Below, one piece after another: positions 2,484 to 47,630 of a stretch of DNA of 64,000 nt. The translations under genes were made by a program, and so were the position numbers. Under the pieces are notes generated by a model. The model was not told the DNA's origin and did no database searches. It saw nothing but the letters and a program-made list of their open reading frames with translations. Source of the DNA: Longimicrobiales bacterium (GTDB lineage Bacteria > Gemmatimonadota > Gemmatimonadetes > Longimicrobiales > RSA9); assembly GCA_035715725.1 (NCBI GenBank), contig DASTKT010000096.1, positions 421-64,420 of the forward strand. Reading direction: 5' to 3'. Positions within the stretch are counted from its first letter, which is position 1; every line of letters starts with the position of its first letter.

Positions 2484-2497
2484 CCGCCCCCCCGCCC

Positions 2498-2911: not shown

Positions 2912-5010
<2,099 letters not shown>

Positions 5011-12771: not shown

Positions 12772-13212
12772 TTGAGTCCGACCTGCCCGATCTGCGGCTG
12801 CGCCCTCGCCGAAGGCGACCGCGTCGTGAGCGTGCTCCCCGCCGGTTCCGGCGCCGCGCCCGCGCTGCGCGAGGTCTCGCTCGCCGCCGCCGCGGATGGC
12901 GCGCTCGCCTATCTCTGTGCCCGCCACGCCGACGCGGTCGCGCTCCTCGAATCGCTCCAGGTCGACCGCGCCTCCATCGAGCGCGAGGTCCGTGGGCACT
13001 TCTACCAGGAGCTCGATCTGCTGGCCTATGCCTTCGAGATGGAAGCCGCGCAGCAGATCGAGGAGGGACGCGACGACGACGCCGCACGCACCCAGCAGAC
13101 CCGCCTCGGCATCCGCCTGGCGGCCCGGCTCGTCGGCGGCGTGCCCGCCCCCGAGGTCGACCGCCGCCTCGAGCGCTGGCGTGACGCCTATCGCACCAAG
13201 TTCCCGGATTGA
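12772..13212 (+). CDS. Hypothetical protein (N-terminal CPICGC motif)
   Basis: 146-aa ORF with a TTG start preceded by GGAGG 5 nt upstream. GC3 is high throughout when read by codon. Confidence 0.45.
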   Translation: MSPTCPICGCALAEGDRVVSVLPAGSGAAPALREVSLAAAADGALAYLCARHADAVALLESLQVDRASIEREVRGHFYQELDLLAYAFEMEAAQQIEEGRDDDAARTQQTRLGIRLAARLVGGVPAPEVDRRLERWRDAYRTKFPD

Positions 13213-13331
13213 TCCCGTCGCGCCGCGGCCGCGCGCCGCACGCACGCGCTGGCCCATCCCGACGCCCGTACTTACCTTCCAGATGCGGACGAAGCGTCCG
13301 TTCCCCGCTTTTCCCCGTCTGGGAGTGCCGA

Positions 13332-15089: not shown

Positions 15090-15092
15090 GGC

Positions 15093-20317: not shown

Positions 20318-21232
20318 TCAGAGGTGCCGCGAGGCCGGCAGGAGCGAGCGGTGGATCGCGAGTGCCGCCCTCACCCCGGAGGCGGCCGCGCTGACGGCGA
20401 GGTACGGCGGTCCCGCCAGGTCGCCGGCCGCGAAGACTCCGCGAATCGACGTCTCCTGCGCATGATCGACGGTCAGTTGGCCACCCTCGCGGTCGCAGCC
20501 GAGCACCTCGGCGATGTCGCACGCGGGACGGGCGCCGAGATGGAAGAAGAGCGCCTCGGCGGTGACGGCCGGCGGCGCATCGAGCTCGATCCGCTCCAGC
20601 CGGCCACCGGCTGCGACGATCCGCCGGACCCTCTCGGTCCGGAGCTGGATGTCGTTCGCGCGCAGCTTGTCGAGCTCCTCGGGTCGGAGCTCGTTCGGTG
20701 CGCCGTCGGTCAGGAGCTGCACGCTGGAGGCCCAGGTGAGCAGGTACAGCGCGAGTGCCGCCGCCTCGCGATCACGGCCGTAGACCGCGACGGGTGCGCC
20801 CACCACGCTCGGTCCGTCGCAGTCCGGGCAATGGAAGGCGGACTGCCCGAACGCCTCCTCGAGCCCCGGCAGCTCCGGGAGCAGATCGCGCAGGCCGAAC
20901 GCGAGGAGCACCCGACGTGCGTGCTGGATCGCGCCCTCGTCCGTGCGGACCGTGAACGCGTCCTGCGCGCCCTCGACCGAGCGTACCGTGCCGGAGGCGA
21001 ATTCGGCGCCGGCGGCCATGGCCTGCTCGCGGAGCCGAGCCCGGATCTCGTCCGGCGGCAGGTCGGGCAGGCCGGGGAACCCGTGAACGGCCCACGTGAC
21101 GCGGTTGCGGGGCCGGCCGGCGTCCAGCACCAGCGCACGGCGGCGGTATCGCGCGAGCCAGAGCGCCGCGGAGAGCCCCGCGGGCCCGCCGCCGACCACG
21201 ACGACATCCCATCCCGCGGCGGCGCGGCTCAC
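20318..21232 (-). CDS. Thioredoxin-reductase-like FAD-dependent pyridine nucleotide-disulfide oxidoreductase
   Basis: C-terminal 304 codons of track ORF 20318..22117. The GTG start overlaps the kinase TGA (GTGA). Contains DVVVVGGGPAGLSAAL, the redox motif HCPDCDG, and GVFAAGD. Confidence 0.8.
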   Translation of the reverse strand: MSRAAAGWDVVVVGGGPAGLSAALWLARYRRRALVLDAGRPRNRVTWAVHGFPGLPDLPPDEIRARLREQAMAAGAEFASGTVRSVEGAQDAFTVRTDEGAIQHARRVLLAFGLRDLLPELPGLEEAFGQSAFHCPDCDGPSVVGAPVAVYGRDREAAALALYLLTWASSVQLLTDGAPNELRPEELDKLRANDIQLRTERVRRIVAAGGRLERIELDAPPAVTAEALFFHLGARPACDIAEVLGCDREGGQLTVDHAQETSIRGVFAAGDLAGPPYLAVSAAASGVRAALAIHRSLLPASRHL

Positions 21233-22698
21233 GACGGCAGCGTGGCGGGGGCCGGCGCGGGCTGGCGGATCGGCAGCACGATCTGGAAGCTGGTGCCCCG
21301 GCCCGGGGAGCTCTCCACGCTGATCCGTCCACCGTGGGCCTCCGCCACCTCCCGTGCGATGCTGAGCCCGAGGCCGGCGCCCTTGGTCCGGGCCTCCGCT
21401 CCCACCTGGTAGTACTTCTCGAAGATGTGCGCGAGCTGCTGGGGCGGGATCCCGACGCCTGTGTCCGTCACGGTCAGGTGCACGCTGTCCTTCGTCCCGC
21501 GGGCGAGCACGCGGATCCGCCCGCCGGCCGGGGTGAACTTCAGCGCGTTCGACAGGAGGTTGCCGAGCAGCTGGTCGCGGATGCGCGGCGCGTCGATCGG
21601 CACGTGCTGCGGCGTGGACGGGTCCACCTGGACCTGGAGGTCGATCTCCTTCTGCCGCGCGAGCGGGTCGAAGGCTCGCTCCACCTCCCCGAGGAGCGCG
21701 TACAGGTCCGCGACCTCGACCTCCATCCGCAGCCCGCCCGCCTCCAGGCGGCTGATGTCCAGCAACTGGTTCACCAGCCGGGTGAGCACACGGGTCTGCT
21801 CGTGGACCGCGCCCAGCACCTCCCGCTGCTTCTCGTTCACGTCGCCGTAGATGCCGTCCTCGAGCAGCTCCGTGTACCCGCCGACCACGTTGATCGGCGT
21901 CTTCAGCTCGTGCGTGGCGATGCTGATGAACTCGGCCTTCAGCCGGTCCAGCTCCGCCAGGCGCTGCGTCATGGAGCGGAACGACCGGGCGAGGTCGCCG
22001 ATCTCGTCGTCGCGGCGGTACGGCAGGTCGCCGGGCACGATGAACTCCCCCCCCGCGACGGCGGCCATCGCGCGCCGCAGCTTCCGGAGCGGCCGCGTAA
22101 AGGCGTCCGTCGTCCACAGCCCCAGCAGCAGCGTGATCAGCAGGGCGACGATGAGGCCGCCGAGCATCGTGGTCGTCGCCGTCGCGCTGATCTTCCGCGC
22201 TCGATTGACTTCGCCCTGGCTGCGGTGGTCGATGGCCTGCGCGATGTCGTCCAGCGAATCCTGCACCGCGGCGAGCGCGGGCTTCAGCCCCTCGAACGCC
22301 TGGGCCGCCTCGTTGACGCGTCCGCTCTGGACGAGCTCCTCGATCCGCTGCGTCGAGCGGCCGATCGCATCGAGGCGTGCGCCCGTCGCGCTCACCGCTT
22401 CGGCGTAACCGGCCGCTCCGAGCCGCGCAATCTGCGTCCGCGCGTTGATCAGCGCGTTGTGCATGCCGACCCGCTGGTCCTCCGACGGCGTCGCGATGTA
22501 GCTGCGCTCGAACCGGTTCAACTCGGCCAGCTCGCGCTGCAGACCGCCCAGCGCGAGAAACGCCGCGGCGTGGCGGCCCTGGAGTTCCTCGGCGATGTCC
22601 CGGAGATCCGCGAGCTGGCTCACGCCGTACACCGCTGGAATGACCAGGAGCGCGATTGTGCCTGCCAGGGAGAGGACCAGACGGGTTCGAACGGTCAT
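21229..22698 (-). CDS. Sensor histidine kinase (periplasmic helical sensor, HAMP, HisKA, HATPase)
   Basis: Track ORF 21229..22758. I prefer the ATG at 22698 (MTVRTRLVLSLAG, first TM). H-box IATHELKTPINVV, N-box LLSNALKFT, G-boxes DTGVGIP and GAGLGLSIA. Confidence 0.85.
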   Translation of the reverse strand: MTVRTRLVLSLAGTIALLVIPAVYGVSQLADLRDIAEELQGRHAAAFLALGGLQRELAELNRFERSYIATPSEDQRVGMHNALINARTQIARLGAAGYAEAVSATGARLDAIGRSTQRIEELVQSGRVNEAAQAFEGLKPALAAVQDSLDDIAQAIDHRSQGEVNRARKISATATTTMLGGLIVALLITLLLGLWTTDAFTRPLRKLRRAMAAVAGGEFIVPGDLPYRRDDEIGDLARSFRSMTQRLAELDRLKAEFISIATHELKTPINVVGGYTELLEDGIYGDVNEKQREVLGAVHEQTRVLTRLVNQLLDISRLEAGGLRMEVEVADLYALLGEVERAFDPLARQKEIDLQVQVDPSTPQHVPIDAPRIRDQLLGNLLSNALKFTPAGGRIRVLARGTKDSVHLTVTDTGVGIPPQQLAHIFEKYYQVGAEARTKGAGLGLSIAREVAEAHGGRISVESSPGRGTSFQIVLPIRQPAPAPATLPS

Positions 22699-22726
22699 GC
22701 GCGTCGTCGGTGTCTCGGCGGGACCG

Positions 22727-23413
22727 TCAAGGTTTGAGGATCCGGCGGATGCGGGCAAGCTCCTGCTGCGTGTCTTCGAGCTGCTTGTCCTTGTCCGCGA
22801 TCTGCCGGTCCCGCTCCGAAACCTGTGCCTGCAGCCTCCGCAGGCGCGCGTTCAGCGAGTCCCGCGTCACCTCCAGCTCGCGGATCCGCGCCGTCACCGG
22901 GGCGCCCGGAAGCTGAGGCAGCGCGCGCGTGCGACCCGCCTGCGCCAACGTCCGGGCGCGAACCGAGTCCAGCAGGACGTCGCGCGCCATCGCCCGCGCC
23001 GAATCCGCGACCGCCTCCGCCTGGTCGGCCCGCTGCTCCGCCGCGCCGAGCTCCAGTGCCAGTAGGTACAGAACCTCGGCCGGCTCCTCCGCCACCGCCG
23101 TGGTGTCCGCGAGCCCCAGATACTGCGCCAGCAGCGCCGCGCCGCCCGGGAGGTCGCGCGCCGGATTCCGCGGGTCCAGCCGGCTCGCGGCCAGCGACAG
23201 CAACGCCTGCTTCCCGACCGTTCCATCCGGATCGGTCCGGTAGAGCCGCTCGAGTTGCATCGCCGCGGCGCCGTAGTCGCCGCGATCGAGCGTGACGAGC
23301 GCCTGCTCCAGGCGGACCTCCGGACCCGCCGGCACCGGCTCGCGGCGCCGCATGACGGCGCACGAGAGCGGTGCGGCGAGTGCCGCCACGAGCAGCAGCA
23401 CGGTCGATCTCAT
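22727..23413 (-). CDS. Hypothetical lipoprotein with TPR-like region and C-terminal coiled coil
   Basis: Internal ATG (23413) of track ORF 22727..23476. MRSTVLLLVAALAAPLSC is a lipobox. The C-terminus RLRRLQAQVSERDRQIADKDKQLEDTQQELARIRRILKP is heptad-like. Confidence 0.55.
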   Translation of the reverse strand: MRSTVLLLVAALAAPLSCAVMRRREPVPAGPEVRLEQALVTLDRGDYGAAAMQLERLYRTDPDGTVGKQALLSLAASRLDPRNPARDLPGGAALLAQYLGLADTTAVAEEPAEVLYLLALELGAAEQRADQAEAVADSARAMARDVLLDSVRARTLAQAGRTRALPQLPGAPVTARIRELEVTRDSLNARLRRLQAQVSERDRQIADKDKQLEDTQQELARIRRILKP

Positions 23414-23511
23414 TCCTCGATGGCTCCTCTGCCGGGTCCGAGCCCGGGCTCTTCGCGACGTTGTGGGACCATGCAAAGCCTAGGCCCCGATCGGCCCCCT
23501 CGCAATGCCCG

Positions 23512-23527
23512 CGGCACGCGCCGTGCA
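23512..23527 (+). promoter_or_regulatory. Candidate sigma-54 (-24/-12) promoter upstream of the gvp operon
   Basis: cGGCACGcgccgTGCa compared with consensus TGGCACG-N4-TTGCW. GG (23513-14) and GC (23525-26) have the canonical spacing. It is about 130 nt upstream of the gvpF ATG on the correct strand. My rough base-composition estimate gives about 1e-3 chance occurrences in this 244-bp spacer. Confidence 0.4.
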
Positions 23528-23657: not shown

Positions 23658-24479
23658 ATGGATCGCGACCTGTCGCCGGCTCTCGATACCGGCACCGCCT
23701 ACGGGGATTCGGCGTCCGCCGACGAGGGGAAGTACGTGTACTGCGTCATCAAGACACCCGACGAGCGGGAGTTCGGACCCATCGGCATCGGCGAGGGTGG
23801 TAATGTCGTGTACACCGTAAGGTTCCAGGACCTCGCCGCGGTCGTCAGCGACACGCCGATCCGCATCTACGACCCGACGCGCGAGAACGTGCTCGCCCAC
23901 GAGCTCGTCAACGAGACCGTGATGCGCGAGTTCACCGTCATTCCGATGTCGTTCGGCACGATCTTTCGCACGAAGGAGGACATCGTCGAGCTGCTGAAGT
24001 CGACGTACCGCGCGTTCGACGACGTCCTCGAAAAAATGCGCGACAAGATCGAGTTCGGGCTCAAGGTGCTGTGGGATCGCGAGAAGGTCATCGCCCTCCT
24101 GGAGGCGGAGGACGAGGAGATCCGGCGGCTGAAGGAGGAGATCACGAACAACGCCCAGAGCTCCACGTACTTTGCCCGGATGCAGCTCGGCCGGCTCATC
24201 GAGAGCGCGCTCGAAGGCAGCGCCAACGACTACGTGGTCGACATCCACGAGTCGCTCAAGCCGGTCGCGGTGGCGAGCCGCTCGAACAAGCCGATCGGCG
24301 ACCGCATGATCATGAACGCCGCCTACCTCGTCGAGCGCAGCCGCGAGCACGACTTCGACGAGGCCGTAAAGGCGCTGAGCCGGAAGTACGAGGACCTGCT
24401 GTCGTTCAAGTACACCGGCCCCTGGCCGCCGTACAACTTCGTGAACATCAAGCTGCGGCTCGAGCGTGCCGACGCGTAG
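23658..24479 (+). CDS. gvpF: Gas vesicle protein GvpF/GvpL family (copy 1)
   Basis: Internal ATG of track ORF 23505..24479. Contains KYVYCVIK...VRFQDLAAVVSD...NVLAHELVNETVMREFTVIPMSFGTIF and C-terminal SFKYTGPWPPYNFV, the classic GvpF/L signature. Confidence 0.9.
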   Translation: MDRDLSPALDTGTAYGDSASADEGKYVYCVIKTPDEREFGPIGIGEGGNVVYTVRFQDLAAVVSDTPIRIYDPTRENVLAHELVNETVMREFTVIPMSFGTIFRTKEDIVELLKSTYRAFDDVLEKMRDKIEFGLKVLWDREKVIALLEAEDEEIRRLKEEITNNAQSSTYFARMQLGRLIESALEGSANDYVVDIHESLKPVAVASRSNKPIGDRMIMNAAYLVERSREHDFDEAVKALSRKYEDLLSFKYTGPWPPYNFVNIKLRLERADA

Positions 24480-24520: not shown

Positions 24521-24916
24521 ATGGGTATCCTCAAGCACCTCCTCTTCTGGCCCGTCACGGGCCCGCTCTTCCTCGCCGAGTTCGCCATGGACAAGGTCGA
24601 GGGTGTCGTTCGCGAGGAGCTCACCGACGATACCCCGGTGAAGGCCGCGCTGCTCGAGCTGCAGCTCGAGCTCGAGCTCGGCGACATCGACGACGCCGAG
24701 TACGTGCGGCGCGAGGCGGAGCTGATGTCTCGCCTGCGCGAGGTCCGCGAGTGGCGCGAGCGCTTCGGCATGGGCGTCGCCGGCGGCGTGGTGAAGGTGG
24801 CGGCGCCCGAGGAAGGCGAGCCGGAGTCCGAGGAGCCGCCCCCGGCGCCGGAGGAAGGACCCAGCGTCGCGGATCCCCACGGGGCCACCATCGAGCTGAA
24901 CTTCGACTGGGAATGA
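24521..24916 (+). CDS. gvpG: Gas vesicle protein GvpG
   Basis: Internal ATG of track ORF 24071..24916. MGILKHLLFWPVTGPLFLAEFAMDKVEGVV...LLELQLELELGDIDDAEYVRREAELMSRL matches the GvpG pattern, followed by an acidic Pro/Glu-rich tail. Confidence 0.75.
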   Translation: MGILKHLLFWPVTGPLFLAEFAMDKVEGVVREELTDDTPVKAALLELQLELELGDIDDAEYVRREAELMSRLREVREWRERFGMGVAGGVVKVAAPEEGEPESEEPPPAPEEGPSVADPHGATIELNFDWE

Positions 24917-26745
24917 GCGACGCTCTCGCGGCGTTGGCCGGCCGCGTGGGCGCGCGCACCACGTTCGTGGTCGGGAAGGGTGGCGTGGGCAAGACGACCA
25001 CCGCCGCCGCCCTCGCCCTCCGCCTCGCCGACTCCGGGCGGCGTACCCACCTCGTCTCGACCGATCCCGCCCACTCCGTCGGCGACGTCTTCGACGTCCG
25101 CCTCCCCGACGGCCGCGTGCACGAGAGCCCGTGCGTCGGCCGGCTCACGCTCGAGGAGTTCGACGCCGCCGGGTACGCGCGCCGCTGGGCCGGCCAGGCG
25201 GAGGCCGCCGTGGCGGAGCTCGTCGAGCGCGGCACCTACCTCGACGCCGAGGACTCCCGGGCGCTAATGGAGCTGTCGCTCCCCGGCGTGGACGAGGTCA
25301 TGGCCGTGCTGCGCCTGGTCGAGCTCGCCGGCGAGCCGATCGAACGGGTGGTCGTCGACACCGCGCCGACCGGGCACATGCTGCGGATGCTCGATGCCGG
25401 GCGCCTCATCGAGGGATGGGTGGCCGCGCTGCGGGCCATGGCGGAGAAGGCCGATGTGGTCGCCTCGAGCCTGGTCGGCCGCGCCGTCCGCAGCCCTGCG
25501 GAGGACTTCCTGGACGAGCTGTACGGGCGCGTCGAGCGCTTCACGCGTAGCGTGCTGGCGGCCGCGGAGTTCGTGGTCGTGACCCGCGCCGAGCCGGCCG
25601 TCGAGGCCGAGACCGCGCGGCTGCGGGCGGAGCTCGCCCGGCGGGGACTCACGCTGGCGGCGGAGGTCGTCGTCGGGGGTCCGGCGGCCGGCGCCGGGAG
25701 CATCGCCCTGGTCGGCGAGCCGGGGATCCGGCGGTGCGAGGCGTTGCGTCGCCTCGGCCGCGAGGTGGCGGAGCCGAAGGGGACGGCCGAGCGCTCCGCT
25801 GCGCCCGCGAGAGCGTGGCCGCCACCCGGGCGCCCGCGCGGTGCCGGAGCCTGGCTCCTGTCGCGCCCCGGGTCGCTCTTCCTCTTCGCCGGCAAGGGGG
25901 GCGTCGGAAAGACGACCTGTGCCGCCGCCTTCGCGCTCGCGCTCGCGGAGTCCCGGCCCGTTGCGCTTCTCAGCACCGATCCCGCGGGCTCGCTCGAGGA
26001 CGTCCTGGGGCTGCCGGTGCCGGCGGAGGGCGCGCGCACCGGCAGCCTGCTGGCGCGCCAGGCCGATGCGGCGGCGGAATTTGCGCGGCTCCGTGAGCGG
26101 TACCGCAAGGAGGTCGGCGCTCTCTTCGACGCGCTCGGGCTGGAGCGCGCGGCGGCGCTCGACCGGGCCGTCGTGGAGTCGCTCTGGGAGATGGCGCCCC
26201 CGGGAATGGACGAGATCGCGGCGCTGCTCCAGATCTCATCCGCCACCGAGGCCGGCACGGTCCTGGTCGTCGATCCCGCGCCGGCCGGCCACCTGCTCCG
26301 GCTGCTGGAGCTGCCCGGGATCGCGCTCGAATGGACGCACTCGCTCCTACGAATTTTCCTGAAGTACGGCCTGGCGCGCAGCCTTGACGAGCTTGTTCAG
26401 GGGGTACTACAGTTCGCTAAGGAACTGAAAGAACTTACGATCCGGCTGAGCGACCCCCAGCGGACCTCCGCCTTCGTCGTCACGCTCGACGAGCCGGTGG
26501 TGCGGATGGAGACGTTGCGCCTGGAGGCGGCGCTGCGGCGCGCCTCGGTGGCCATCTCGGCGGTCATCGTCAACCGGACCGAGGCCGGCACGGGCGCTGG
26601 GGCCGCGGGCGCGGTCGCCGGGGAATCGCGGGTGGACGGCCGATCCGGGCGGCCGCCGACCATCATCGCCCCGCGCCTGGCGCCTCCGCCGTCGGGCGCT
26701 CCGGCGCTCCAGGCGTTTCTGGCCCGGTGGGAGTTCGCGTCTTGA
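24913..26745 (+). CDS. Tandem-domain ArsA/Get3-like (SIMIBI) ATPase embedded in the gvp operon
   Basis: ATG at 24913 overlaps the gvpG TGA (ATGA). 610 aa. Half 1 has GKGGVGKTT, STDPAHS and VVDTAPTGHMLRML. Half 2 has GKGGVGKTT, LSTDPAGS and VVDPAPAGHLLRLL. The ArsA cysteine triad is not apparent and there are no ars partner genes. Confidence 0.85.
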   Translation: MSDALAALAGRVGARTTFVVGKGGVGKTTTAAALALRLADSGRRTHLVSTDPAHSVGDVFDVRLPDGRVHESPCVGRLTLEEFDAAGYARRWAGQAEAAVAELVERGTYLDAEDSRALMELSLPGVDEVMAVLRLVELAGEPIERVVVDTAPTGHMLRMLDAGRLIEGWVAALRAMAEKADVVASSLVGRAVRSPAEDFLDELYGRVERFTRSVLAAAEFVVVTRAEPAVEAETARLRAELARRGLTLAAEVVVGGPAAGAGSIALVGEPGIRRCEALRRLGREVAEPKGTAERSAAPARAWPPPGRPRGAGAWLLSRPGSLFLFAGKGGVGKTTCAAAFALALAESRPVALLSTDPAGSLEDVLGLPVPAEGARTGSLLARQADAAAEFARLRERYRKEVGALFDALGLERAAALDRAVVESLWEMAPPGMDEIAALLQISSATEAGTVLVVDPAPAGHLLRLLELPGIALEWTHSLLRIFLKYGLARSLDELVQGVLQFAKELKELTIRLSDPQRTSAFVVTLDEPVVRMETLRLEAALRRASVAISAVIVNRTEAGTGAGAAGAVAGESRVDGRSGRPPTIIAPRLAPPPSGAPALQAFLARWEFAS

Positions 26746-27542
26746 GCGAGGTCTTCTACCTCTACGGCTTCGTCTCGGCCGACGCGACTCTCCCCGAGCG
26801 AGGGCTCGCCGGCCTCGCGGACGCGTCGGTCGAGCTCGTGCCGCTCGACGGCGTCGCCGCGGTGGTCAGCCGGCTCCCCGCCGCCGACTACGCCCCCGAG
26901 CGGCTGGACGAGCGGACCCGGGACCTGCCCTGGGTCGCGGAGCAGGGACTCGCCCACGAGCGCGTCGTCGCCTGGTTCGTCGACCACGCGCAGATCCTGC
27001 CGGTGGCGCTCTTCACGCTGTACTCCTCCCGTGCCACGCTCGTGGAGGATGCCGCGCGGCGCGGCCCGGCGCTGCGCGCCGCGCTGGCCCGCATGGCCGG
27101 CAAGCGGGAGTGGGACCTGAAGGTCGCGTACGCGGGCGACCGGTTGGCGGAGCACCTGGGCGAGGTCTCGGAGGCGGTCGCGGAGCTCGATCGCCGCATC
27201 GCGGAGGCGACCCCGGGCACGCGCTTCCTGCTGCAGCGGAAGCGCGACGAGGTCGTGGAGGCCGAGACGGCGCGAACCGCGCGGCGTCTCGCCGGCGAGC
27301 TCCTCGACTCGGTCGTGGCGGACGCGGACCGATTCGTGCTCGTGCCCGTGGGAGCGAGCGAGGGCACGCTGCCGGTCGTACTCAACGCGGCGCTGCTCCT
27401 GACGCTCGAGGCGGAGAGCCGCGTCGAGGAGCGGGTCCGGCGGCGCGCCGTCGCGCTCGAGAAGCTGGGGCTGCACGTCTCCTTCTCCGGACCGTGGGCG
27501 CCGTACCGGTTCCTGGAGGAGACGAGCGCGGATGCCGGATGA
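26742..27542 (+). CDS. Gas vesicle protein GvpF/GvpL family (copy 2)
   Basis: Track ORF 26727..27542. I prefer the TTG at 26742 (TTGA overlap with the ATPase stop), giving MSEVFYLYGFV as in other GvpF/L N-termini. C-terminus SFSGPWAPYRF. Confidence 0.8.
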   Translation: MSEVFYLYGFVSADATLPERGLAGLADASVELVPLDGVAAVVSRLPAADYAPERLDERTRDLPWVAEQGLAHERVVAWFVDHAQILPVALFTLYSSRATLVEDAARRGPALRAALARMAGKREWDLKVAYAGDRLAEHLGEVSEAVAELDRRIAEATPGTRFLLQRKRDEVVEAETARTARRLAGELLDSVVADADRFVLVPVGASEGTLPVVLNAALLLTLEAESRVEERVRRRAVALEKLGLHVSFSGPWAPYRFLEETSADAG

Positions 27543-27735
27543 GCTGACACTGCAGGACGAGCTCACGCTGGTCGAGCTCGTCAATCGGGTCCTCGACCGC
27601 GGCGTCGTGATCACCGGTGAGGTGACGATCAGCGTCGCGGGCGTGGATCTGGTGTTCCTCGGCCTCGACCTGCTGCTCACGTCCGTCGAGACGGCGGTGC
27701 AGCGGAAGCGACTGCCGCCGCCACGCACGGAATGA
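27532..27735 (+). CDS. Small GvpA-family protein (GvpS/GvpM-like)
   Basis: 67 aa. LVELVNRVLDRGVVITGEVTISVAGVDLVFLGLDLLLTSVE aligns by eye to the GvpA core. GGAGGAG lies about 10 nt upstream. Overlaps the preceding gene by 11 nt. Confidence 0.75.
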   Translation: MPDELTLQDELTLVELVNRVLDRGVVITGEVTISVAGVDLVFLGLDLLLTSVETAVQRKRLPPPRTE

Positions 27736-28418
27736 GCGGCGCGTACCTCTACTGCATCGCGCCGGCGGGCGTCGTTCCGCCGGGCGGCCTGGTCGGGCTG
27801 GAGGATGCGCCGGTCCGCGTGGCGTCGTTCGGGACGTTCACGGCGTGGTATTCCGAGCTGGACGCGCGGCCCGAGCCGAGCATCGAGCGAATTCGCCGCC
27901 ACAACCAGGTGGTCGAGGCCGCGCTCACGGAGGAGGCGACGCCGGTACCGGCCCGCTTCGGGCAGTGGTTCACGGCACCGGCGGCGCTCGAGGAGAAGCT
28001 GCGCGAGGGCGCTGCCGTGCACGAGGAATCGTTGCGGCGCGTGGCCGGCGCGGTCGAATTCGGGCTGCGCGTGGCGGAGCTCGCGGCGCCGCCGGCGAGC
28101 GCTCCGGCGGCCGTTCCCGAGGCGACGACGGGCCGCGCGTACCTCGAGGCGTTGGCTGCGCGCGCGGCCGCGGACCGCTCGCGGGAAGAACGTGGCCGGG
28201 AGATTGCAACGCGCATTGCCTCCGTTCTCGGTCCTGCCGTGCGTCAGGAGCGCGTCGAGAGCGCGCAGTCACGTCACGAGGTGGTACGCATTGCGCACCT
28301 CGTCGCCCGACGGGACGTCGAGCCGTACCGCGCCGGCGTGGCGGAGGTGCGGCGCCGCTACCCGGAACTGCGGTTCTTGCTGAGCGGCCCCTGGCCGCCC
28401 TACTCCTTCGCGGCATGA
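27732..28418 (+). CDS. Gas vesicle protein GvpL/GvpF family (copy 3)
   Basis: 228 aa. ATGA overlap. N-terminus MSGAYLYCIAP, internal HNQVVEAAL...PARFG, C-terminus LSGPWPPYSF. Confidence 0.75.
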   Translation: MSGAYLYCIAPAGVVPPGGLVGLEDAPVRVASFGTFTAWYSELDARPEPSIERIRRHNQVVEAALTEEATPVPARFGQWFTAPAALEEKLREGAAVHEESLRRVAGAVEFGLRVAELAAPPASAPAAVPEATTGRAYLEALAARAAADRSREERGREIATRIASVLGPAVRQERVESAQSRHEVVRIAHLVARRDVEPYRAGVAEVRRRYPELRFLLSGPWPPYSFAA

Positions 28419-28777
28419 GTGGTGAGCGGGAGCGCGCGGCGGATGCGGCTCGCGTCGAGGCGGATGATCCCGGCCTCTTCGCAGCCGAGCTGAAGGACCT
28501 CGCGCCGGCATTGCCCAGCCGGATCGAGGCCCGATCCGACAACATCGAAGCGGGTCTCGCGAAGCTGGTCCTTACGCTTCTCGAGTTCGTCCGACAGATT
28601 CTGGAGCACCAGGCGGTGCGGCGGATGGAAGGCGGCACGCTGTCGGACGCCGAGATCGAGGAGGTCGGTCTCGCGCTGCTGAAGCTGAAGGAACGGCTGG
28701 TCGAGATCGAAGACGTGTTCGGCTTGAGCAGGGAGGATCTGAACATCGACCTCGGCCCGCTCGGACGACTCCTCTGA
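28415..28777 (+). CDS. gvpK: Gas vesicle protein GvpK
   Basis: Internal ATG of track ORF 27845..28777 (ATGA overlap). GLAKLVLTLLEFVRQILEHQAVRRMEGGTLSDAEIEEVGLALLKLKERL matches the GvpK pattern. Confidence 0.8.
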   Translation: MSGERERAADAARVEADDPGLFAAELKDLAPALPSRIEARSDNIEAGLAKLVLTLLEFVRQILEHQAVRRMEGGTLSDAEIEEVGLALLKLKERLVEIEDVFGLSREDLNIDLGPLGRLL

Positions 28778-28792: not shown

Positions 28793-29104
28793 TTGGCTGA
28801 GCGCTACGACCTGGGCCCGCATCGCTCGCAGGGCCTCGTGGACATCCTGGACCGGATCCTGGACAAGGGGCTGGTGATCGCGGGGGACATCCGCGTCCAC
28901 CTGGCCAACGTCGAGCTGCTGACGATCCAGATCCGGCTCCTGGTGTGTTCGGTCGACAAGGCCGACGAGATCGGGCTGAACTGGTGGCGGTCCGATCCGT
29001 ACTTCAGCGGGCGACGCGACGTCGCACAGCTCGAATCGATCGACGACCGGCTGGGGCGGCTGGAGGCGAAGCTGGCCGCTCTCGAGCCACGGCCGGCGGA
29101 GTAG
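28793..29104 (+). CDS. gvpJ: Gas vesicle protein GvpJ (GvpA family with C-terminal extension)
   Basis: 103 aa with a TTG start. GLVDILDRILDKGLVIAGDIRVHLANVELLTIQIRLLVCSVDKA is a GvpA/J core, followed by a coiled-coil-like tail. Confidence 0.8.
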   Translation: MAERYDLGPHRSQGLVDILDRILDKGLVIAGDIRVHLANVELLTIQIRLLVCSVDKADEIGLNWWRSDPYFSGRRDVAQLESIDDRLGRLEAKLAALEPRPAE

Positions 29105-29137: not shown

Positions 29138-29434
29138 ATGGCGGTGGAAAGGGCACCGGCTGGTACCAGCCTGATCGACGTTCTGGACCGGGTGTTGGAC
29201 AAAGGGATCGTCATCGACGCGTACGTCCGCGTCTCGTTGGTGGGGATCGACCTGGTCAGCGTCGAGGCCCGAATCGTCGTCGCATCCGTGGAGACGTACC
29301 TGAAGTACGCGGAGGCGATCGGCATGACGGGTGTGGCGTCCCGGCCGCTCGTCGCTCCCCCAGGACAGCCGGACCTGGAGCGGGTCATGGCCGAGAACGT
29401 CGAGCTCCGGCGGCGCCTCGAAGAGTTGAGCTGA
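29138..29434 (+). CDS. gvpA: Major gas vesicle structural protein GvpA (with ~30-aa C-terminal extension)
   Basis: 98 aa. [52 protein letters not shown] is near-canonical GvpA. GGAG lies 8 nt upstream of the ATG. Confidence 0.9.
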
Positions 29435-29435: not shown

Positions 29436-31592
29436 GTGTCCGTGGGATCCCGTTCCCTGGAGGCGCTGACCGCGGACCTCCTGGAGCGGCTCGCCCAGGT
29501 CGACGAGGTCCTCCCGGCATGCTCGCTCGTCCTGGAGCGAGTGGCCGCGGAGGCAGGGGTCGGCCGGGCACTGGCGCTCGTGCGCGTCGAAGACTCGGTC
29601 CGCGGGGTGGGCGTCGGGGTGGCGGACGAGCGCGTCGGCGCCATCGCGGCGTCGGCCCGGCTGGGCGAAGGGCCGTTCGCCGACTGCCTGCGGGGAGCCC
29701 AGCCCACGCCGCTCCCCGACGCCGTCGAGCTCGTCGGCTTCGGCGGCGTCGCCGTGCCGTTCCGCGGGGTGGGCGACAAGCCGCTCGGCTGCGCATTTTT
29801 CGAGCTGGACTGCGTGGATGACCGCGTGGACGTGCTCGCGGGCCTCCTTCGGCGGTGTGGGCCGGCCATCGGCCGTTGCGCGCAGCTCGAGGCCACCCGC
29901 GGCCGCCTTACCCGCATGGCGCGCCAGCGCGATCTCCTCACGGGCATCGTCGACGCGCTCCCCGACCCGGTCCTCCTGACCAGCGCCGACAACTCGATCC
30001 TGCTGGCCAATCGGCGCGCGGAGCGGCTCTTCTCCTTCTCCACCGAGGACAACGACGGCCGCCGGCGCGCGATCCAGATCAACACGTTGCTCTTCAGCTC
30101 GTTCCTGACCCGCGCGGTCATCGGCCAGGGCGGGGAGCCGGCGGGACGCGAGTTGAACCTGGTGGATCCGACGGACGGCTCCGACCTGGTGTTCGAGGTG
30201 CTGTCCTATCCGCTGCCGCCGAGCACCGCGCCGGCGGACTCCGTCCTGTCCATCCTGCGCGACATCACCGACCTGAAGCGGGCCGTCACGCAGCTGGAGG
30301 ACCAATTCCGGCGCTCCCGCATCGCGGAGCACCAGGCCCGCCGGGAGCGCGACCAGCTCGACGCCATCCTCGAGAACGTCAGCGACCCGATCCTGGTCAC
30401 GGACGAGCAGTCGAACATCATCCTCATGAACCCGGAAGCGGACCGCCTGTTCGTGGTGCCGTCCGACGGCGAGGCGAATTCCCCGGCCAGCCGCGCGGTC
30501 CAGGCGAACGACACCCGGTTCACGACGCACATCAGCGATTTCCTGCTGCGGGACGAGGCGCGCCGCGTGGTGAAGCTGACGATCACGGATCCCGATACGG
30601 GGAACGAGATCCCGGTGGAGGTCGCCAGCAGCAAGATCCTGGACTCGCGCGGTGAGCCGCGTGCGATCGTGAGCATCGTGCACGATCTGGCGCAGCTCGT
30701 GGAGAACGAGCGGCTGGCGGGGGAGCTCGGCCAGCTGAACGCGGAGCTCGAGAGCCGAATCCGGCGGGCGACGGTGGACCTCGAAGAGCGCAACCGTCGC
30801 CTGGAGTGGCAGAGCTACGAGCTGGAGCGGGCCTACCGGCTCAAGAGCGAGTTCCTGGCGAGCATGTCCCACGAGCTGCGCACGCCGATCAACGTGATCC
30901 TCGGCTACACGTCGCTGGCGCGCGAGCGGATCTACGGCGAGCTGACGCTCGAGCAGGACGAGGCGCTCGGTAAGGTCTACGGCACGTCGCAGCACCTGCT
31001 GGAGCTGATCAACGACATCCTGGACCTGTCGAAGATCGAGGCGGGCAAGATGCCGGTCCACCTCGAGGTCGTCAGCATCGACGAGATCGTCCAGGAGCTG
31101 TCGGAGACGGTCAAGCCGATGCTGGCGAGAAAGGTGCTGGACTACGAGGCGTCGGTCGAGTCGGGGCTGCCGCCGCTCCTGACGGACCGGACCAAGCTGA
31201 AGCAGATCCTGCTGAACCTGTTGTCGAACGCCATCAAGTTCACGCACGAGGGGAAGATCCGCGTCGAGGCGCGCGGTGGCCTCGGCGACCGGATCCAGCT
31301 CGTGGTCGAGGATACCGGGATCGGCATCCGGGCCGATCATCTCGAGCTCATCTTCGAGGACTTCCGGCAGGTGGACCAATCCCGCACCCGGGAGTACGGC
31401 GGGACCGGGCTCGGCCTGTCCATCACGAAGAAGCTGCTCACGCTCCTCGGCGGGGTCATCTCCGTCGAAAGCGAGTACGGCCAGGGCTCCCGCTTCACGG
31501 TCGAGCTGCCGCTTCGGACGGAGGCCGGCTCCCTCGAGGACCAGGTCCGTCGCGCCGTCGTGGAGGCCGACCGCGCCGTCGTGAAGCCGTAG
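29436..31592 (+). CDS. Cytoplasmic sensor histidine kinase (GAF-like N-domain, two PAS-like domains, HisKA, HATPase)
   Basis: 718 aa. The GTG start lies 1 nt after the gvpA TGA. H-box SMSHELRTPINVILGY, N-box LLSNAIKFT, G-boxes DTGIGI and GTGLGLSITK. No TM segment and no adjacent response regulator. Confidence 0.85.
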   Translation: MSVGSRSLEALTADLLERLAQVDEVLPACSLVLERVAAEAGVGRALALVRVEDSVRGVGVGVADERVGAIAASARLGEGPFADCLRGAQPTPLPDAVELVGFGGVAVPFRGVGDKPLGCAFFELDCVDDRVDVLAGLLRRCGPAIGRCAQLEATRGRLTRMARQRDLLTGIVDALPDPVLLTSADNSILLANRRAERLFSFSTEDNDGRRRAIQINTLLFSSFLTRAVIGQGGEPAGRELNLVDPTDGSDLVFEVLSYPLPPSTAPADSVLSILRDITDLKRAVTQLEDQFRRSRIAEHQARRERDQLDAILENVSDPILVTDEQSNIILMNPEADRLFVVPSDGEANSPASRAVQANDTRFTTHISDFLLRDEARRVVKLTITDPDTGNEIPVEVASSKILDSRGEPRAIVSIVHDLAQLVENERLAGELGQLNAELESRIRRATVDLEERNRRLEWQSYELERAYRLKSEFLASMSHELRTPINVILGYTSLARERIYGELTLEQDEALGKVYGTSQHLLELINDILDLSKIEAGKMPVHLEVVSIDEIVQELSETVKPMLARKVLDYEASVESGLPPLLTDRTKLKQILLNLLSNAIKFTHEGKIRVEARGGLGDRIQLVVEDTGIGIRADHLELIFEDFRQVDQSRTREYGGTGLGLSITKKLLTLLGGVISVESEYGQGSRFTVELPLRTEAGSLEDQVRRAVVEADRAVVKP

Positions 31593-40907: not shown

Positions 40908-41214
40908 TCCGTGGAATCGAGCCTGGGAGACTTCCGGAATGTAGCGGGGGTGAAATTGAGCGTCAAGGGCACATGCCGGCCGAATCCCGTTGGGGCGCGC
41001 CAGGAAGCGGCGGGCCCGGCGGGCGCGTGAACGGGCTCGCGAGGAGGGGGTCCGCGGGGTTGCGTGCACCGTAGGGGAGCCCCATCTTCCCGCGGCTTTT
41101 TACGGGGCGTTCCTGCTTGCGTCCGCGGGGATGCGACCGTATGCTGCGCGCCCGCACGACCCCGCACGGTCGGGGCGCGCGACCGTATCAGGGTCTTCAG
41201 ACGCCAGGTACCCG

Positions 41215-41760: not shown

Positions 41761-41818
41761 GGACCGGGCGCCCGTGACACGCGAGAGAGAGGCCGGCGCC
41801 GCCCCGAAGGAGCGAGGG

Positions 41819-45004: not shown

Positions 45005-45010
45005 TCGAGC

Positions 45011-46965: not shown

Positions 46966-46975
46966 GCGTGGGGTG

Positions 46976-47620: not shown

Positions 47621-47630
47621 GGAAGCGATC

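What the first reader, a model, noticed from the sequence alone, without database searches (positions are those of the whole stretch)
24913..26745. ArsA/Get3-like tandem ATPase hard-wired into the gas vesicle operon: possible dedicated chaperone/assembly ATPase replacing GvpN
Seen: a 610-aa ORF has its ATG overlapping the gvpG stop (ATGA) and its stop overlapping the next gvpF/L start (TTGA), so it is an integral operon member. It consists of two homologous halves, each with the deviant Walker A GKGGVGKTT. Half 1 has STDPAHS and the switch-II signature DTAPTGH. Half 2 has STDPAGS and a degenerate DPAPAGH. Established: these are ArsA/Get3 (SIMIBI class) signatures. ArsA needs ArsB and a metalloid-binding Cys triad. 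Get3 is an ATP-driven chaperone that shields very hydrophobic tail-anchored segments. Seen: no ars genes are nearby and the Cys triad is not evident. Inference: this ATPase may capture and deliver the extremely hydrophobic GvpA/J/S subunits during shell assembly. That would take the energy-dependent role normally ascribed to AAA+ GvpN, which is absent here. I do not recall such an ATPase in the canonical gvp clusters.
Basis: partly seen in the sequence, partly recalled or inferred. Interest (0 to 1): 0.8.

Follow-up and report, generated by a model that had tools for sequence, protein, structure and literature searches.

The report
Get3-like ATPase inside gas-vesicle operon
A two-part ATP-using protein of the Get3/ArsA family is built into a gas-vesicle gene cluster of a Gemmatimonadota-like bacterium. 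The pairing was first reported in 2010, its job has never been tested, and equally related clusters do without it.

Summary
ORF 24913-26745 encodes a 610-aa fused pseudo-dimer of the Get3/ArsA (SIMIBI) family. It overlaps gvpG at its start (ATGA) and the next gvpF/L at its stop (TTGA).

It is not an arsenite-pump ArsA. It fails the ArsA equivalog model, lacks Cys113/172/422, has no ars neighbours, and carries Get3-type motifs and inserts.

The gene order gvpF-G-arsA-F/L-S-F/L-K-J-A is conserved in six relatives. All 13 gvp-linked tandem proteins I sampled form one clade, separate from true ArsA.

The ArsA-gvp link is already published (Castillo & Saier 2010; a 2017 cyanobacterial co-evolution study), with the same idea that the protein energises vesicle biogenesis.

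"Replacing GvpN" is only weakly supported:
- GvpN is absent from the 64-kb window and from relatives' flanks.
- Other clusters carry ArsA together with GvpN.
- 19 of 38 informative gvpK-anchored metagenome loci lack ArsA; several long ones have no ATPase at all.

The best reading is an accessory, ATP-driven, Get3-like assembly or chaperone factor for hydrophobic Gvp proteins. The client is unknown. This is a new member of a known but uncharacterised kind, of moderate interest.

The parts
23658..24479 (+). gvpF/L paralogue 1, first gene of the cluster
   Evidence: PF06386 GvpL_GvpF, 263.6 bits. 79-89% identical in six relatives.
24521..24916 (+). gvpG. It has a hydrophobic N-terminus (MGILKHLLFWPVTGPLFLA), and its stop overlaps the ATPase start.
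   Evidence: PF05120 GvpG, 54.3 bits. Junction sequence; hydropathy.
24913..26745 (+). Tandem (pseudo-dimeric) Get3/ArsA-fold ATPase, 610 aa. This is the feature under study.
   Evidence: PF02374 238 bits; TIGR00345 244.7 bits against a cutoff of 135; TIGR04291 ArsA equivalog only 164.6 bits against a cutoff of 650. AF2 model pLDDT 89.8, pTM 0.91. Foldseek top hits are ArsA in the closed state, Chlamydomonas ArsA1 and Get3.
24973..24999 (+). Half 1 deviant Walker A, GKGGVGKTT (residues 21-29)
   Evidence: K22, G23, G24, G26, K27 and T29 are invariant in 120 homologues.
25057..25077 (+). Half 1 switch I, STDPAHS (Get3-type; true ArsA has STDPASN)
   Evidence: D51, P52 and A53 are invariant.
25279..25296 (+). 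Half 1 LPGVDE motif, at the position of the ArsA Cys113 segment (SGACTTEIAAFDEF)
   Evidence: 13 of 13 gvp-linked proteins have PG.DE here; 15 of 15 true ArsAs have the Cys.
25357..25377 (+). Half 1 switch II, DTAPTGH
   Evidence: D149, T150, A151, P152 and H155 are invariant.
25666..25683 (+). Half 1 A-loop position, VVVGGP. The adenine-contacting Asn is lost in this lineage.
   Evidence: The Asn is kept in gvp-linked proteins of other phyla and in all true ArsAs.
25759..25848 (+). Low-complexity Pro/Ala/Arg-rich linker between the halves (about residues 283-312)
   Evidence: pLDDT 59-69 and no secondary structure in the model. Poorly conserved.
25891..25917 (+). Half 2 deviant Walker A, GKGGVGKTT (residues 327-335), followed by conserved Cys336
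25972..25992 (+). Half 2 switch I, STDPAGS
   Evidence: D356 and P357 are conserved in at least 90% of homologues.
26197..26214 (+). Half 2 PPGMDE motif, at the position of the ArsA Cys422 segment (SPCTEEIAVF)
26272..26292 (+). Half 2 switch II, DPAPAGH. The family consensus is D-x-A-P-T-G-H; the window has Ala where at least 90% have Thr.
26293..26470 (+). Half 2 extended helical segment after switch II. It is about 19 aa longer than in true ArsA, at the position of the Get3 helices 7-9 / TRC40-insert.
   Evidence: 59-60 aa in 13 gvp-linked proteins against 38-44 aa in 15 true ArsAs. Half 1 is 65-68 against 54.
26572..26574 (+). Half 2 A-loop Asn554, invariant
26742..27542 (+). gvpF/L paralogue 2. 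Its TTG start overlaps the ATPase stop. A gene of this kind always follows the tandem ATPase.
   Evidence: PF06386, 151.7 bits. The same 4-bp overlap occurs in L001, L002, L003, L084, L085 and L086. The order R-F-a holds in 16 of 16 tandem-ArsA metagenome loci.
27532..27735 (+). Small GvpA-family gene (GvpS/M-like, 67 aa). It is the most hydrophobic product of the cluster.
   Evidence: PF00741, 53.8 bits. Maximum KD19 hydropathy 2.07.
27732..28418 (+). gvpF/L paralogue 3
   Evidence: PF06386, 153.3 bits
28415..28777 (+). gvpK
   Evidence: PF05121, 106.2 bits
28793..29104 (+). gvpJ-like GvpA-family gene
   Evidence: PF00741, 60.6 bits
29138..29434 (+). gvpA, the major shell protein
   Evidence: NF006874, 113.8 bits against a cutoff of 100
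29436..31592 (+). PAS-domain histidine kinase directly after gvpA. It is conserved next to both ArsA-containing and ArsA-less clusters and is probably a regulator.
   Evidence: Pfam PAS, HisKA and HATPase_c. The same gene is found in L001, L084, L085, L086, L095 and L139.

Best explanation
The ORF encodes a fused, pseudo-dimeric Get3/ArsA-fold (SIMIBI) ATPase. It belongs to a clade found specifically inside gas-vesicle gene clusters.

Shown:
- It is translationally coupled to gvpG upstream and to a gvpF/L gene plus a small GvpA-family gene downstream.
- It lacks the arsenite-binding cysteines.
- It has Get3-type motifs and an enlarged helical subdomain at the place where Get3 forms its client groove.
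- Its predicted fold matches closed ArsA and Get3.

Inferred: ATP binding at the interface of the two halves closes the molecule, so that the two helical subdomains clamp a hydrophobic Gvp segment. The most likely clients are GvpA-family subunits (the 67-aa GvpS-like protein, GvpJ, GvpA) or the hydrophobic N-terminus of GvpG. Hydrolysis then releases the client to the GvpF/L-GvpG-GvpK machinery at the nascent vesicle.

It is an accessory factor that improves or controls assembly. It is not a universal core part and not a one-for-one substitute for GvpN.
For: Family and fold:
- Pfam and NCBIfam assignments.
- AF2 model with pLDDT 89.8.
- Foldseek: closed L. ferriphilum ArsA TM 0.66/0.70, C. reinhardtii ArsA1 and Get3.
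- The family profile scores highest against the tail-anchored-protein factor ARSA1 (5zme, 270 bits), above ArsA (201) and Get3 (160).

Not an ArsA:
- TIGR04291 scores 164.6 against a cutoff of 650. Six of six non-gvp tandem proteins score 730-935; four of four other gvp-linked ones score below 240 or do not register.
- Cys113/172/422 are replaced in 13 of 13 gvp-linked proteins and kept in 15 of 15 ArsAs.
- No ars genes are present.

Get3-like features:
- STDPAHS and PG[VI]DE motifs.
- Inserts of +12 and +19 aa after switch II, at the TRC40-insert position. PMC6593721 uses this feature to separate Get3-like proteins from ArsA.

Dedicated to gvp:
- The same gene order and the 4-bp overlap occur in six relatives at 48-58% identity.
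- Gvp-linked tandem proteins from Gemmatimonadota-like, Acidobacteriota, Rokubacteria and Anaerolineales genomes form one clade.
- Two of two more distant representatives are also gvp-linked.
- 49 invariant positions, including all catalytic motifs, across 120 homologues.
- The tandem ATPase is always followed by gvpF/L and then a small GvpA-family gene.

Published support: association and co-evolution with gvp genes (PMC2963123; PMC5464585).
Against: - No experiment exists for any member in the literature I could search.
- No client was identified. Coordinates of the model were not available, so the hydrophobicity of the groove was not examined.
- 19 of 38 informative gvpK-anchored loci lack the gene, including L139, whose gene order is otherwise identical.
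- gvpA plus gvpNJKFGWV of Anabaena flos-aquae make vesicles in human cells without any ArsA homologue (PMC10344784). So the protein is not essential, at least in GvpN-containing systems.
- GvpF and GvpG have themselves been proposed as the GvpA chaperones (PMC11445434).
- In this lineage half 1 has lost the A-loop Asn, so one nucleotide site may be impaired.
- Strongly conserved W474, R480 and Y485 in the helical subdomain point to a specific partner rather than generic binding of hydrophobic segments.
Confidence: 0.55

Rival explanations
1. One reading: the ATPase is the functional replacement of AAA+ GvpN. It would supply the energy for inserting GvpA and elongating bicones into mature vesicles in clusters that lost gvpN.
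For: - No GvpN in the 64-kb window.
- No GvpN within 10 kb either side in six relatives, nor in the Acidobacteriota and Rokubacteria loci.
- In those loci the ArsA-like protein is the only Walker-A protein of 150 aa or more near the cluster.
- GvpN-deleted mutants stop at the bicone stage, so an elongation function has to be provided somehow (PMC11445434).
Against: - ArsA and GvpN co-occur in Polaribacter, Pelodictyon, Geobacter and Anabaena/Nostoc, in Nodularia, and in L017, L145, L150 and L155.
- Long loci L095, L115, L121, L135, L139 and L143 have neither ATPase next to clusters whose GvpK and GvpA are as similar to the window's as those of ArsA-bearing clusters.
- The fold and mechanism are different (SIMIBI dimer clamp versus AAA+ ring).
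- Whether gvpN lies elsewhere in these genomes could not be checked.
Confidence: 0.15
2. It is a spatial or temporal switch rather than a chaperone, working like ParA/MinD/FlhG-type SIMIBI ATPases. In this reading it would position, space or license vesicle nucleation sites, or gate assembly in response to ATP level.
For: - Deviant Walker A with the signature Lys in both halves.
- Weak N-terminal matches to the CbiA, ParA and MinD models.
- It is dispensable in related clusters, which fits a modulatory role.
Against: - Matches to ParA/MinD models cover only the P-loop region, whereas the full length matches Get3/ArsA.
- It has the Get3-type helical subdomain, which ParA and MinD lack.
- No membrane-targeting amphipathic C-terminus or DNA-binding feature was seen (not formally tested).
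Confidence: 0.1
3. It is a redox- or metal-responsive holdase. In this reading the three conserved cysteines (74, 275, 336) form a disulfide or metal site that switches the protein. This is comparable to oxidised Get3 acting as an ATP-independent chaperone, or to metalloid activation of ArsA.
For: - The protein has only three Cys, and all three are conserved in 110 of 120 homologues.
- Two lie in half 1 and one in half 2, as in the ArsA triad but at different positions.
- Half 1 has lost the A-loop Asn in the same sub-clade that gained Cys74 and Cys275.
- A thioredoxin-reductase-like gene and a DsbH-like gene are conserved upstream.
Against: - Cys74 and Cys275 are absent from gvp-linked proteins of other phyla, so this cannot be the family's general mechanism.
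- Distances between the cysteines could not be measured.
- The redox-gene neighbours may be coincidental synteny.
Confidence: 0.1
4. It is an ordinary arsenite/antimonite pump ATPase (ArsA) that merely happens to sit among gvp genes.
For: Tandem architecture with DTAPTGH. Public annotations call its homologues 'arsenite-transporting ATPase'.
Against: - It fails the ArsA equivalog model, 164.6 against 650.
- All three metalloid-binding Cys are missing.
- No arsB, acr3, arsD, arsR or arsC in 64 kb.
- It falls in a clade separate from true ArsA.
- It overlaps gvp genes at both ends, and this is conserved.
Confidence: 0.02

Closest known systems
Gas-vesicle-associated two-domain ArsA homologues (Castillo & Saier 2010, clusters 4 and 6; PMC2963123)
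   Same: Two-domain protein of about 600-645 aa encoded inside gvp operons, lacking the ArsA cysteines, with no ars genes or arsR nearby. It was proposed to energise a step of vesicle biogenesis. The acidobacterial example (arsA with two L/F genes plus J, K and M, no gvpN listed) matches the cluster type seen here.
   Different: This one comes from a Gemmatimonadota-like lineage that the paper did not cover. It has lineage-specific features: loss of the A-loop Asn in half 1, conserved Cys74 and Cys275, and DPAPAGH in half 2.
Tandem Get3 homologues: Chlamydomonas ArsA1 (PDB 5zme/5zmf) and the bacterial two-domain Get3 groups 7 and 8 of Farkas et al. 2019 (PMC6593721)
   Same: A single-chain pseudo-dimer of two Get3 domains, with STDPAHS and PPG.DE motifs, an extended helical region after switch II in both halves, and no metalloid cysteines. 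ARSA1 is the best-scoring solved structure by sequence profile (270 bits). Farkas et al. state that the function of the bacterial groups is unclear.
   Different: ArsA1 targets tail-anchored proteins to chloroplast membranes. Here no membrane receptor or tail-anchored client is evident, and the genomic partners are gas-vesicle proteins. Identity is only about 24%. There is no CxxC motif, unlike the Myxococcales group.
Get3/TRC40 tail-anchored protein targeting ATPase
   Same: Same fold and nucleotide-switch motifs, and the helical client-binding subdomain with an insert relative to ArsA. This makes a plausible analogy: an ATP-driven clamp for very hydrophobic segments.
   Different: Get3 is a homodimer held by a CxxC-zinc site and works with Get1/2 and Get4/5. 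This protein is a fused pseudo-dimer with no CxxC (three Cys only) and no known receptors. The destination would be a protein shell, not a lipid bilayer.
ArsA arsenite-translocating ATPase (E. coli R773, L. ferriphilum; PDB 1f48, 9nbo)
   Same: Tandem A1-A2 architecture of similar length. These are the best structural matches (TM 0.66/0.70 to the closed state). Half 1 carries DTAPTGH.
   Different: No Cys113/172/422 and no ArsB, Acr3 or ArsD partners. It fails the equivalog model and has a longer helical subdomain. The halves tree suggests the internal duplication arose independently of the ArsA duplication.
GvpN (AAA+ ATPase of gas-vesicle clusters, TIGR02640)
   Same: An ATPase encoded inside gvp clusters and thought to assist shell growth. 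In this cluster type the Get3-like protein is the only cluster-encoded ATPase.
   Different: An unrelated fold (AAA+ ring versus SIMIBI dimer). The two co-occur in many clusters, so they are not simple alternatives.

Membership tests
ArsA arsenical pump-driving ATPase (TIGR04291 equivalog) | Whole-protein score at or above the curated equivalog cutoff (650 bits) | tested here: not met
   164.6 bits. Six control tandem proteins from non-gvp loci score 730-935.
ArsA arsenical pump-driving ATPase (TIGR04291 equivalog) | Metalloid-binding cysteines Cys113, Cys172 and Cys422 | tested here: not met
   These positions are Leu, Pro or Gly, or have no Cys, in 13 of 13 gvp-linked proteins. They are conserved in 15 of 15 true ArsAs.
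ArsA arsenical pump-driving ATPase (TIGR04291 equivalog) | Tandem A1-A2 domains, each with a deviant Walker A and DTAPTGH | tested here: met
   Two GKGGVGKTT motifs. DTAPTGH in half 1; DPAPAGH in half 2, where the family consensus is DxAPTGH.
ArsA arsenical pump-driving ATPase (TIGR04291 equivalog) | Genomic association with arsB/acr3, arsD, arsR or arsC | tested here: not met
   No such Pfam families among the likely coding ORFs of the 64-kb window.
TRC40/GET3/ArsA superfamily (TIGR00345, PF02374) | Score above the curated cutoff, and the fold | tested here: met
   244.7 bits against 135; PF02374 238 bits. Foldseek probability 1.00 to ArsA, ArsA1 and Get3.
Get3/TRC40 proper | Switch I STDPAH(N/S) and the P-G-(I/V)-D-E motif in place of the ArsA Cys segment | tested here: met
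   STDPAHS, LPGVDE and PPGMDE.
Get3/TRC40 proper | Extended helices 7-9 / TRC40-insert after switch II, relative to ArsA | tested here: met
   +12 aa in half 1 and +19 aa in half 2 relative to 15 true ArsAs. The inserts are shorter than I recall for yeast Get3 (from memory, not measured here).
Get3/TRC40 proper | Hydrophobic composite groove that binds a transmembrane segment | not testable with these tools
   Model coordinates are not provided. The helices are 45-69% hydrophobic residues, which does not decide the question.
Get3/TRC40 proper | Homodimer held by a CxxC zinc site; Get1/2 and Get4/5 binding residues | tested here: not met
   Single chain with two domains. Only three Cys (74, 275, 336) and no CxxC. 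Receptor-binding residues were not examined.
Gas-vesicle-associated two-domain ArsA homologues (Castillo & Saier clusters 4/6) | Two domains, about 600-645 aa, encoded within a gvp operon, with no ars genes and no ArsA cysteines | tested here: met
   610 aa, overlapping gvpG and gvpF/L.
Gas-vesicle-associated two-domain ArsA homologues (Castillo & Saier clusters 4/6) | Same clade as the published members | tested here: inconclusive
   It forms one clade with 12 other gvp-linked tandem proteins, including Acidobacteriota ones. The published sequences themselves could not be fetched.
GvpN (TIGR02640) | AAA+ (AAA_5) fold | tested here: not met
   No AAA_5 or GvpN match for this ORF. A true GvpN (L017:606-1568) scores 387.5 bits.
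ParA/MinD positioning ATPases | Full-length match to ParA/MinD models; no Get3-type helical subdomain | tested here: not met
   Matches are limited to about 35-50 residues around the P-loop and are far below the cutoffs.

The most novel reading that the evidence does not exclude
In GvpN-less clusters of this type (Gemmatimonadota, Acidobacteriota, Rokubacteria), the fused Get3-like ATPase would be the motor of shell growth. In this reading it captures newly made GvpA-family subunits in a composite hydrophobic groove and uses ATP to insert them into the growing protein shell. That would be a Get3-style insertion pathway whose target is a protein-walled organelle rather than a lipid membrane, and it would be functionally equivalent to GvpN.
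Probability: 0.15. Interest if true: 0.7.

Novelty: new member of a known kind. Interest (0 to 1): 0.4.

Why it matters
How gas-vesicle shells are nucleated and elongated, and where the energy goes, is still open. GvpN is the only ATPase that has been studied.

A clade of Get3-like ATPases tied to gvp clusters across several phyla has been known from genome comparison since 2010 but never tested. Natural cluster variants now exist in all combinations: ArsA only, GvpN only, both, neither, and some with a CDC48-type ATPase. This makes a ready comparative set for asking what each ATPase contributes.

Compact nine-gene, GvpN-free clusters such as this one could also interest groups engineering gas vesicles as acoustic reporters.

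For bacterial Get3 homologues, whose function is described as unclear, the gvp linkage gives a concrete, testable client set.

Tried and rejected
1. Genome-collection scan with the ATPase alignment. The result was a near-random sample of ArsA/Get3/ParA loci rather than close relatives.

2. tblastn against plasmids. This found only true ArsA and single-domain homologues, none gvp-linked.

3. Literature searches for 'gas vesicle' with 'Get3' (0 papers), with 'Gemmatimonad' (nothing relevant), and with gvp plus arsenite terms. Three papers that mention both words were irrelevant.

4. Search for a sigma-54 promoter upstream of gvpF. The pattern count in the window is not above chance (18 found, 13.8 expected). 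A GGCAC-N5-xTGC element 138-200 bp upstream occurs in only 4 of 7 relatives. The upstream regions do not align. I left this as a weak lead.

5. Measuring the distances between Cys74, Cys275 and Cys336, and the hydrophobicity of the groove surface. This was not possible because model coordinates are not exposed.

6. Complex prediction with Gvp proteins.

7. Rejected: true ArsA, ParA/MinD membership, and strict anticorrelation with GvpN (see the membership tests and rival explanations).


Full report
**1. Observation**

The window is 71.6% G+C. The ORF at 24913-26745 (+) gives a 610-aa protein. Its ATG lies in the sequence GGAATGAGC, so it overlaps the TGA of the upstream gene. Its own TGA lies in GTCTTGAGC, so it overlaps a TTG start of the downstream gene.

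- GKGGVGKTT at residues 21-29 and 327-335
- STDPAHS at 49-55 and DTAPTGH at 149-155
- STDPAGS at 354-360 and DPAPAGH at 454-460

The two halves align at 37% identity over 259 residues (E = 1e-19).

Pfam gives ArsA_ATPase (PF02374) at 238 bits in two stretches. NCBIfam gives the broad TRC40/GET3/ArsA subfamily model at 244.7 bits against a cutoff of 135.

The flanking genes are real gvp genes:

| Coordinates | Gene |
|---|---|
| 23658-24479 | gvpF/L |
| 24521-24916 | gvpG |
| 24913-26745 | the ATPase |
| 26742-27542 | gvpF/L |
| 27532-27735 | 67-aa GvpA-family gene |
| 27732-28418 | gvpF/L |
| 28415-28777 | gvpK |
| 28793-29104 | gvpJ-like gene |
| 29138-29434 | gvpA |
| 29436-31592 | PAS histidine kinase |

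From the ATPase to gvpK, every junction is an overlap.

**2. It is not an arsenite-pump ArsA**

The ArsA equivalog model scores 164.6 bits against a cutoff of 650. As controls, six tandem proteins from non-gvp loci score 730-935. Of four other gvp-linked tandem proteins, three score 173-237 and one does not reach the report threshold.

I aligned 28 tandem proteins. The three metalloid-binding cysteines and their contexts (SGACTTEIAAFDEF, ASCLGP, SPCTEEIAVF) are present in all 15 non-gvp proteins. They are replaced in all 13 gvp-linked ones by LPG(V/I)DE, by nothing, and by PPGxDE.

Pfam annotation of the likely coding ORFs across the 64 kb shows no ArsB, Acr3, ArsC, ArsD or ArsR family.

**3. 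It resembles Get3 more than ArsA**

- Switch I of half 1 is STDPAHS, as in Get3 and ARSA1. True ArsA has STDPASN and T(T/S)DPAxH.
- The segment between switch II and the next strand is 65-68 residues in half 1 and 59-60 in half 2 of the gvp-linked proteins. In true ArsA it is 54 and 38-44. This is where Get3 has its extended helices 7-9 and the TRC40-insert.
- Farkas et al. 2019 use the absence of the metal cysteines together with this insert to separate Get3-like homologues from ArsA (PMC6593721).
- A profile of 120 homologues scores best against the Chlamydomonas tail-anchored-protein factor ARSA1, itself a tandem Get3 (270 bits). ArsA scores 201 and Get3 about 160.
- The AlphaFold model is confident (pLDDT 89.8, pTM 0.91). 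Its best structural matches are closed-state ArsA (TM 0.66/0.70), E. coli ArsA, ARSA1 and many Get3 structures.
- In a neighbour-joining tree of separated halves, both halves of the gvp-linked proteins group together, apart from ArsA A1 and A2. This suggests an independent internal duplication. The tree has no bootstrap support, so this is only suggestive.

**4. The gene belongs to the gas-vesicle cluster**

The protein has thousands of database relatives. The best 120 are 44-59% identical over the full length, and the few with source names are from Longimicrobiales and Gemmatimonadota MAGs.

Six contigs encoding such relatives have the same order: gvpF-gvpG-ATPase-gvpF/L-small gvpA-like-gvpF/L-gvpK-gvpJ-gvpA. 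Two of them are 4.5- and 5.4-Mb contigs. All six share the 4-bp overlap between the ATPase and the next gene. Five of the six also share the downstream PAS kinase, and all six share upstream synteny.

Within it, every tandem protein that failed to look like ArsA was flanked by gvp genes. These came from Thermoanaerobaculia, Terriglobia, Ca. Angelobacter, Rokubacteria, Anaerolineales and Vicinamibacterales.

All 13 gvp-linked tandem proteins form one clade, separate from the 15 ArsAs. Two more distant representatives picked from the exhaustive search are gvp-linked too. In that search 1,243 representative clusters scored E <= 1e-30, and the 150 best listed all score above 416 bits.

Forty-nine positions are invariant in the 120 homologues, including both P-loops and switch motifs. 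The gene is therefore a conserved, selected member of a gvp-specific family.

**5. This is already in the literature**

Castillo & Saier 2010 (PMC2963123) reported two-domain ArsA homologues of about 637-645 aa. They found them inside gvp operons of Polaribacter, Pelodictyon, Geobacter uraniireducens, Anabaena/Nostoc and an acidobacterium.
- They noted that these proteins lack the ArsA cysteines and have no arsR.

A 2017 study found ArsA in the same phylogenetic-profile cluster as eight Gvp proteins across cyanobacteria (PMC5464585).

In Nodularia an "ArsA" gene (nsp15480) directly follows the gvpA1A2CNJKLFGVW genes (nsp15380-15470), although the authors listed it under arsenate genes (PMC3610870).

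Farkas et al. 2019 describe tandem Get3 homologues in cyanobacteria and Myxococcales and call their function unclear. They do not mention gas vesicles. I found no experimental work on any member.

**6. Does it replace GvpN?**

Locally, GvpN is absent. Four GvpN sequences recovered from other loci are 46-56% identical to each other, yet they find nothing in the window (best E = 0.1). They also find nothing in any of the Gemmatimonadota-like, Acidobacteriota or Rokubacteria loci.

As a general rule, however, the replacement idea fails on two counts.

First, the ATPase and GvpN co-occur in all the published cases except the acidobacterial one. They also co-occur here in an Anaerolineales locus and in three 46%-GC metagenome loci:
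- L017 has GvpN (387.5 bits on TIGR02640) plus a CDC48-type AAA ATPase.
- L145, L150 and L155 have GvpN, a single-domain ArsA-like gene and a CDC48-like gene.

Second, I sampled 80 metagenome loci anchored on gvpK, not on the ATPase. Of 38 informative loci, 19 carry the ATPase and 19 do not. Among the long loci:
- L095, L115, L121, L135, L139 and L143 have no GvpN or ArsA-like gene in the locus. The only stray Walker-A pattern match is an unconfirmed 380-aa ORF upstream of the L095 cluster.
- L128 has only a CDC48-like protein.
- L152 has only GvpN.

L139 (71% GC) has exactly the window's gene order, including the downstream PAS kinase, except that gvpG overlaps gvpF/L directly. L095 has a shorter version, F-G-F-K-a-a, with the same kinase. 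Both are flanked by housekeeping genes.

Their core Gvp proteins are as similar to the window's as those of ArsA-bearing clusters from other lineages (GvpF/L1 62-73%, GvpK 55-62%, GvpA 70-73%).

In the Anabaena flos-aquae system, gvpA plus gvpNJKFGWV suffice for vesicles in human cells (PMC10344784).

The ATPase is therefore a frequent but dispensable module. Whether gvpN sits elsewhere in the genomes of the window's relatives could not be tested.

**7. Most likely mechanism**

Shown:
- The fold and the intact catalytic motifs in both halves.
- The Get3-type helical subdomain.
- The conserved coupling to gvpG upstream.
- Downstream, in 16 of 16 tandem cases in the metagenome sample and in the complete genome loci, a gvpF/L paralogue followed by a small, very hydrophobic GvpA-family gene.

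Inferred: like Get3, the protein closes on ATP binding and holds a hydrophobic Gvp segment. It then releases it on hydrolysis to the GvpF/L-GvpG-GvpK assembly machinery.

I give 0.55 to the general statement (a gvp-dedicated, accessory, ATP-dependent assembly or chaperone factor). A specific client is much less certain.

Points against a simple generic holdase:
- Conserved aromatic and charged residues in the helical subdomain (W474, R480, Y485).
- The existing proposal that GvpF and GvpG chaperone GvpA (PMC11445434).

**8. Lineage-specific oddities**

In the window's own sub-clade (7 of 7 sequences in the tandem alignment), half 1 has lost the A-loop asparagine (VVVGGP in place of (L/V/I)N(R/Q)). 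Only 14 of the 120 close homologues have any Asn in that stretch. All other gvp-linked proteins and all ArsAs keep it.

The same sub-clade has gained Cys74 and Cys275. Together with Cys336, these are the only cysteines in the protein, and all three are present in 110 of 120 homologues. This may indicate an asymmetric ATPase with a redox or metal site, but I could not measure distances in the model.

**9. Verdict**

The cluster membership is real and conserved.

The claim of novelty is not right, and "replaces GvpN" is at best a lineage-specific possibility (about 0.15).

This is a new member, from a Gemmatimonadota-like lineage, of a known but experimentally untouched family of gvp-associated Get3-like ATPases. 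Interest is moderate (0.4). It is not surprising to anyone who knows the 2010 paper. It remains an open and easily testable question, and a useful set of natural variants has been identified here.

Noticed in passing
window 25132-25134, 25735-25737, 25918-25920 (Cys74, Cys275, Cys336 of the ATPase): The protein has only three cysteines, and all three are conserved in 110 of 120 homologues. Cys74 and Cys275 are specific to the window's sub-clade. They may form a redox or metal site, at positions different from the ArsA triad.
   Followed up: partly
window 25666-25683 (VVVGGP): The half 1 A-loop asparagine is lost in the window's sub-clade only. It is kept in gvp-linked homologues of other phyla and in all true ArsAs. 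This suggests an asymmetric pseudo-dimer with one impaired nucleotide site.
   Followed up: partly
window 29436-31592 (+); also L001, L084-L086, L095:10871-13177, L139:10983-13046: A PAS-domain histidine kinase starts 2 nt after the gvpA stop. It is conserved next to both ArsA-containing and ArsA-less clusters and is likely the regulator of vesicle formation. No response regulator is adjacent in the window.
   Followed up: partly
window 20318-23476 (-): A divergently oriented trio is conserved upstream of the gvp cluster in relatives: a 249-aa protein with no Pfam match (22727-23476), a HAMP histidine kinase (21229-22758) and a thioredoxin-reductase-like flavoprotein (20318-21232).
   Followed up: no
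window 23512-23527 (+); NtrC-type activator at 9048-10388: CGGCACGCGCCGTGCA, a possible sigma-54 -24/-12 element, lies 146 bp upstream of gvpF. Similar elements occur in L001, L002 and L003 but not in L084-L086. The window-wide count is not above chance. Sigma-54 activators lie near the cluster in L002 and in the P0153 contig.
   Followed up: partly
L017:6598-8793; L128:2132-4438; L145:3912-6101; L150:3909-6098; L155:3618-5894: CDC48-type double-AAA ATPase genes sit inside some gvp clusters. They occur with or without GvpN and ArsA-like genes, so gas-vesicle clusters carry at least three unrelated ATPase types in varying combinations.
   Followed up: partly
L123:1641-2618 and 2570-3553; L145:2968-3918; L155:2749-3702: The gvp-linked Get3-like ATPase also occurs as two adjacent single-domain genes (L123). 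In GvpN-containing, 46%-GC clusters it occurs as one single-domain gene.
   Followed up: no
L139:6877-10964; L095:7742-10598: These are natural ArsA-less versions of the same cluster. In L139, gvpG overlaps gvpF/L directly and the gene order is otherwise identical. L095 also lacks the gvpF/L2 and small gvpA-like pair.
   Followed up: yes
window 13209-17635 (+): A DsbH-like thioredoxin-fold protein, a LuxE-like acyl-protein synthetase and a LuxC-like acyl-CoA reductase are conserved upstream of the gvp region in all six relatives. Their function and any link to vesicles are unknown.
   Followed up: no
window 40990-48968 (+): An alternative-complex-III-like gene set: a multihaem cytochrome c, a molybdopterin/Fe-S subunit, an NrfD-like membrane subunit and a cytochrome c. 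It also lies downstream of the gvp cluster in L085 and L086.
   Followed up: no
window 31632-32768 (+): A 378-aa, very hydrophobic, Ala/Leu-rich predicted membrane protein with no Pfam match follows the PAS kinase. It does not appear at this position in the relatives examined.
   Followed up: no
window 1270-5010 (-): A PrkA-type serine kinase gene and a DUF444 gene form a pair at the left end of the window. They are unrelated to the finding.
   Followed up: no
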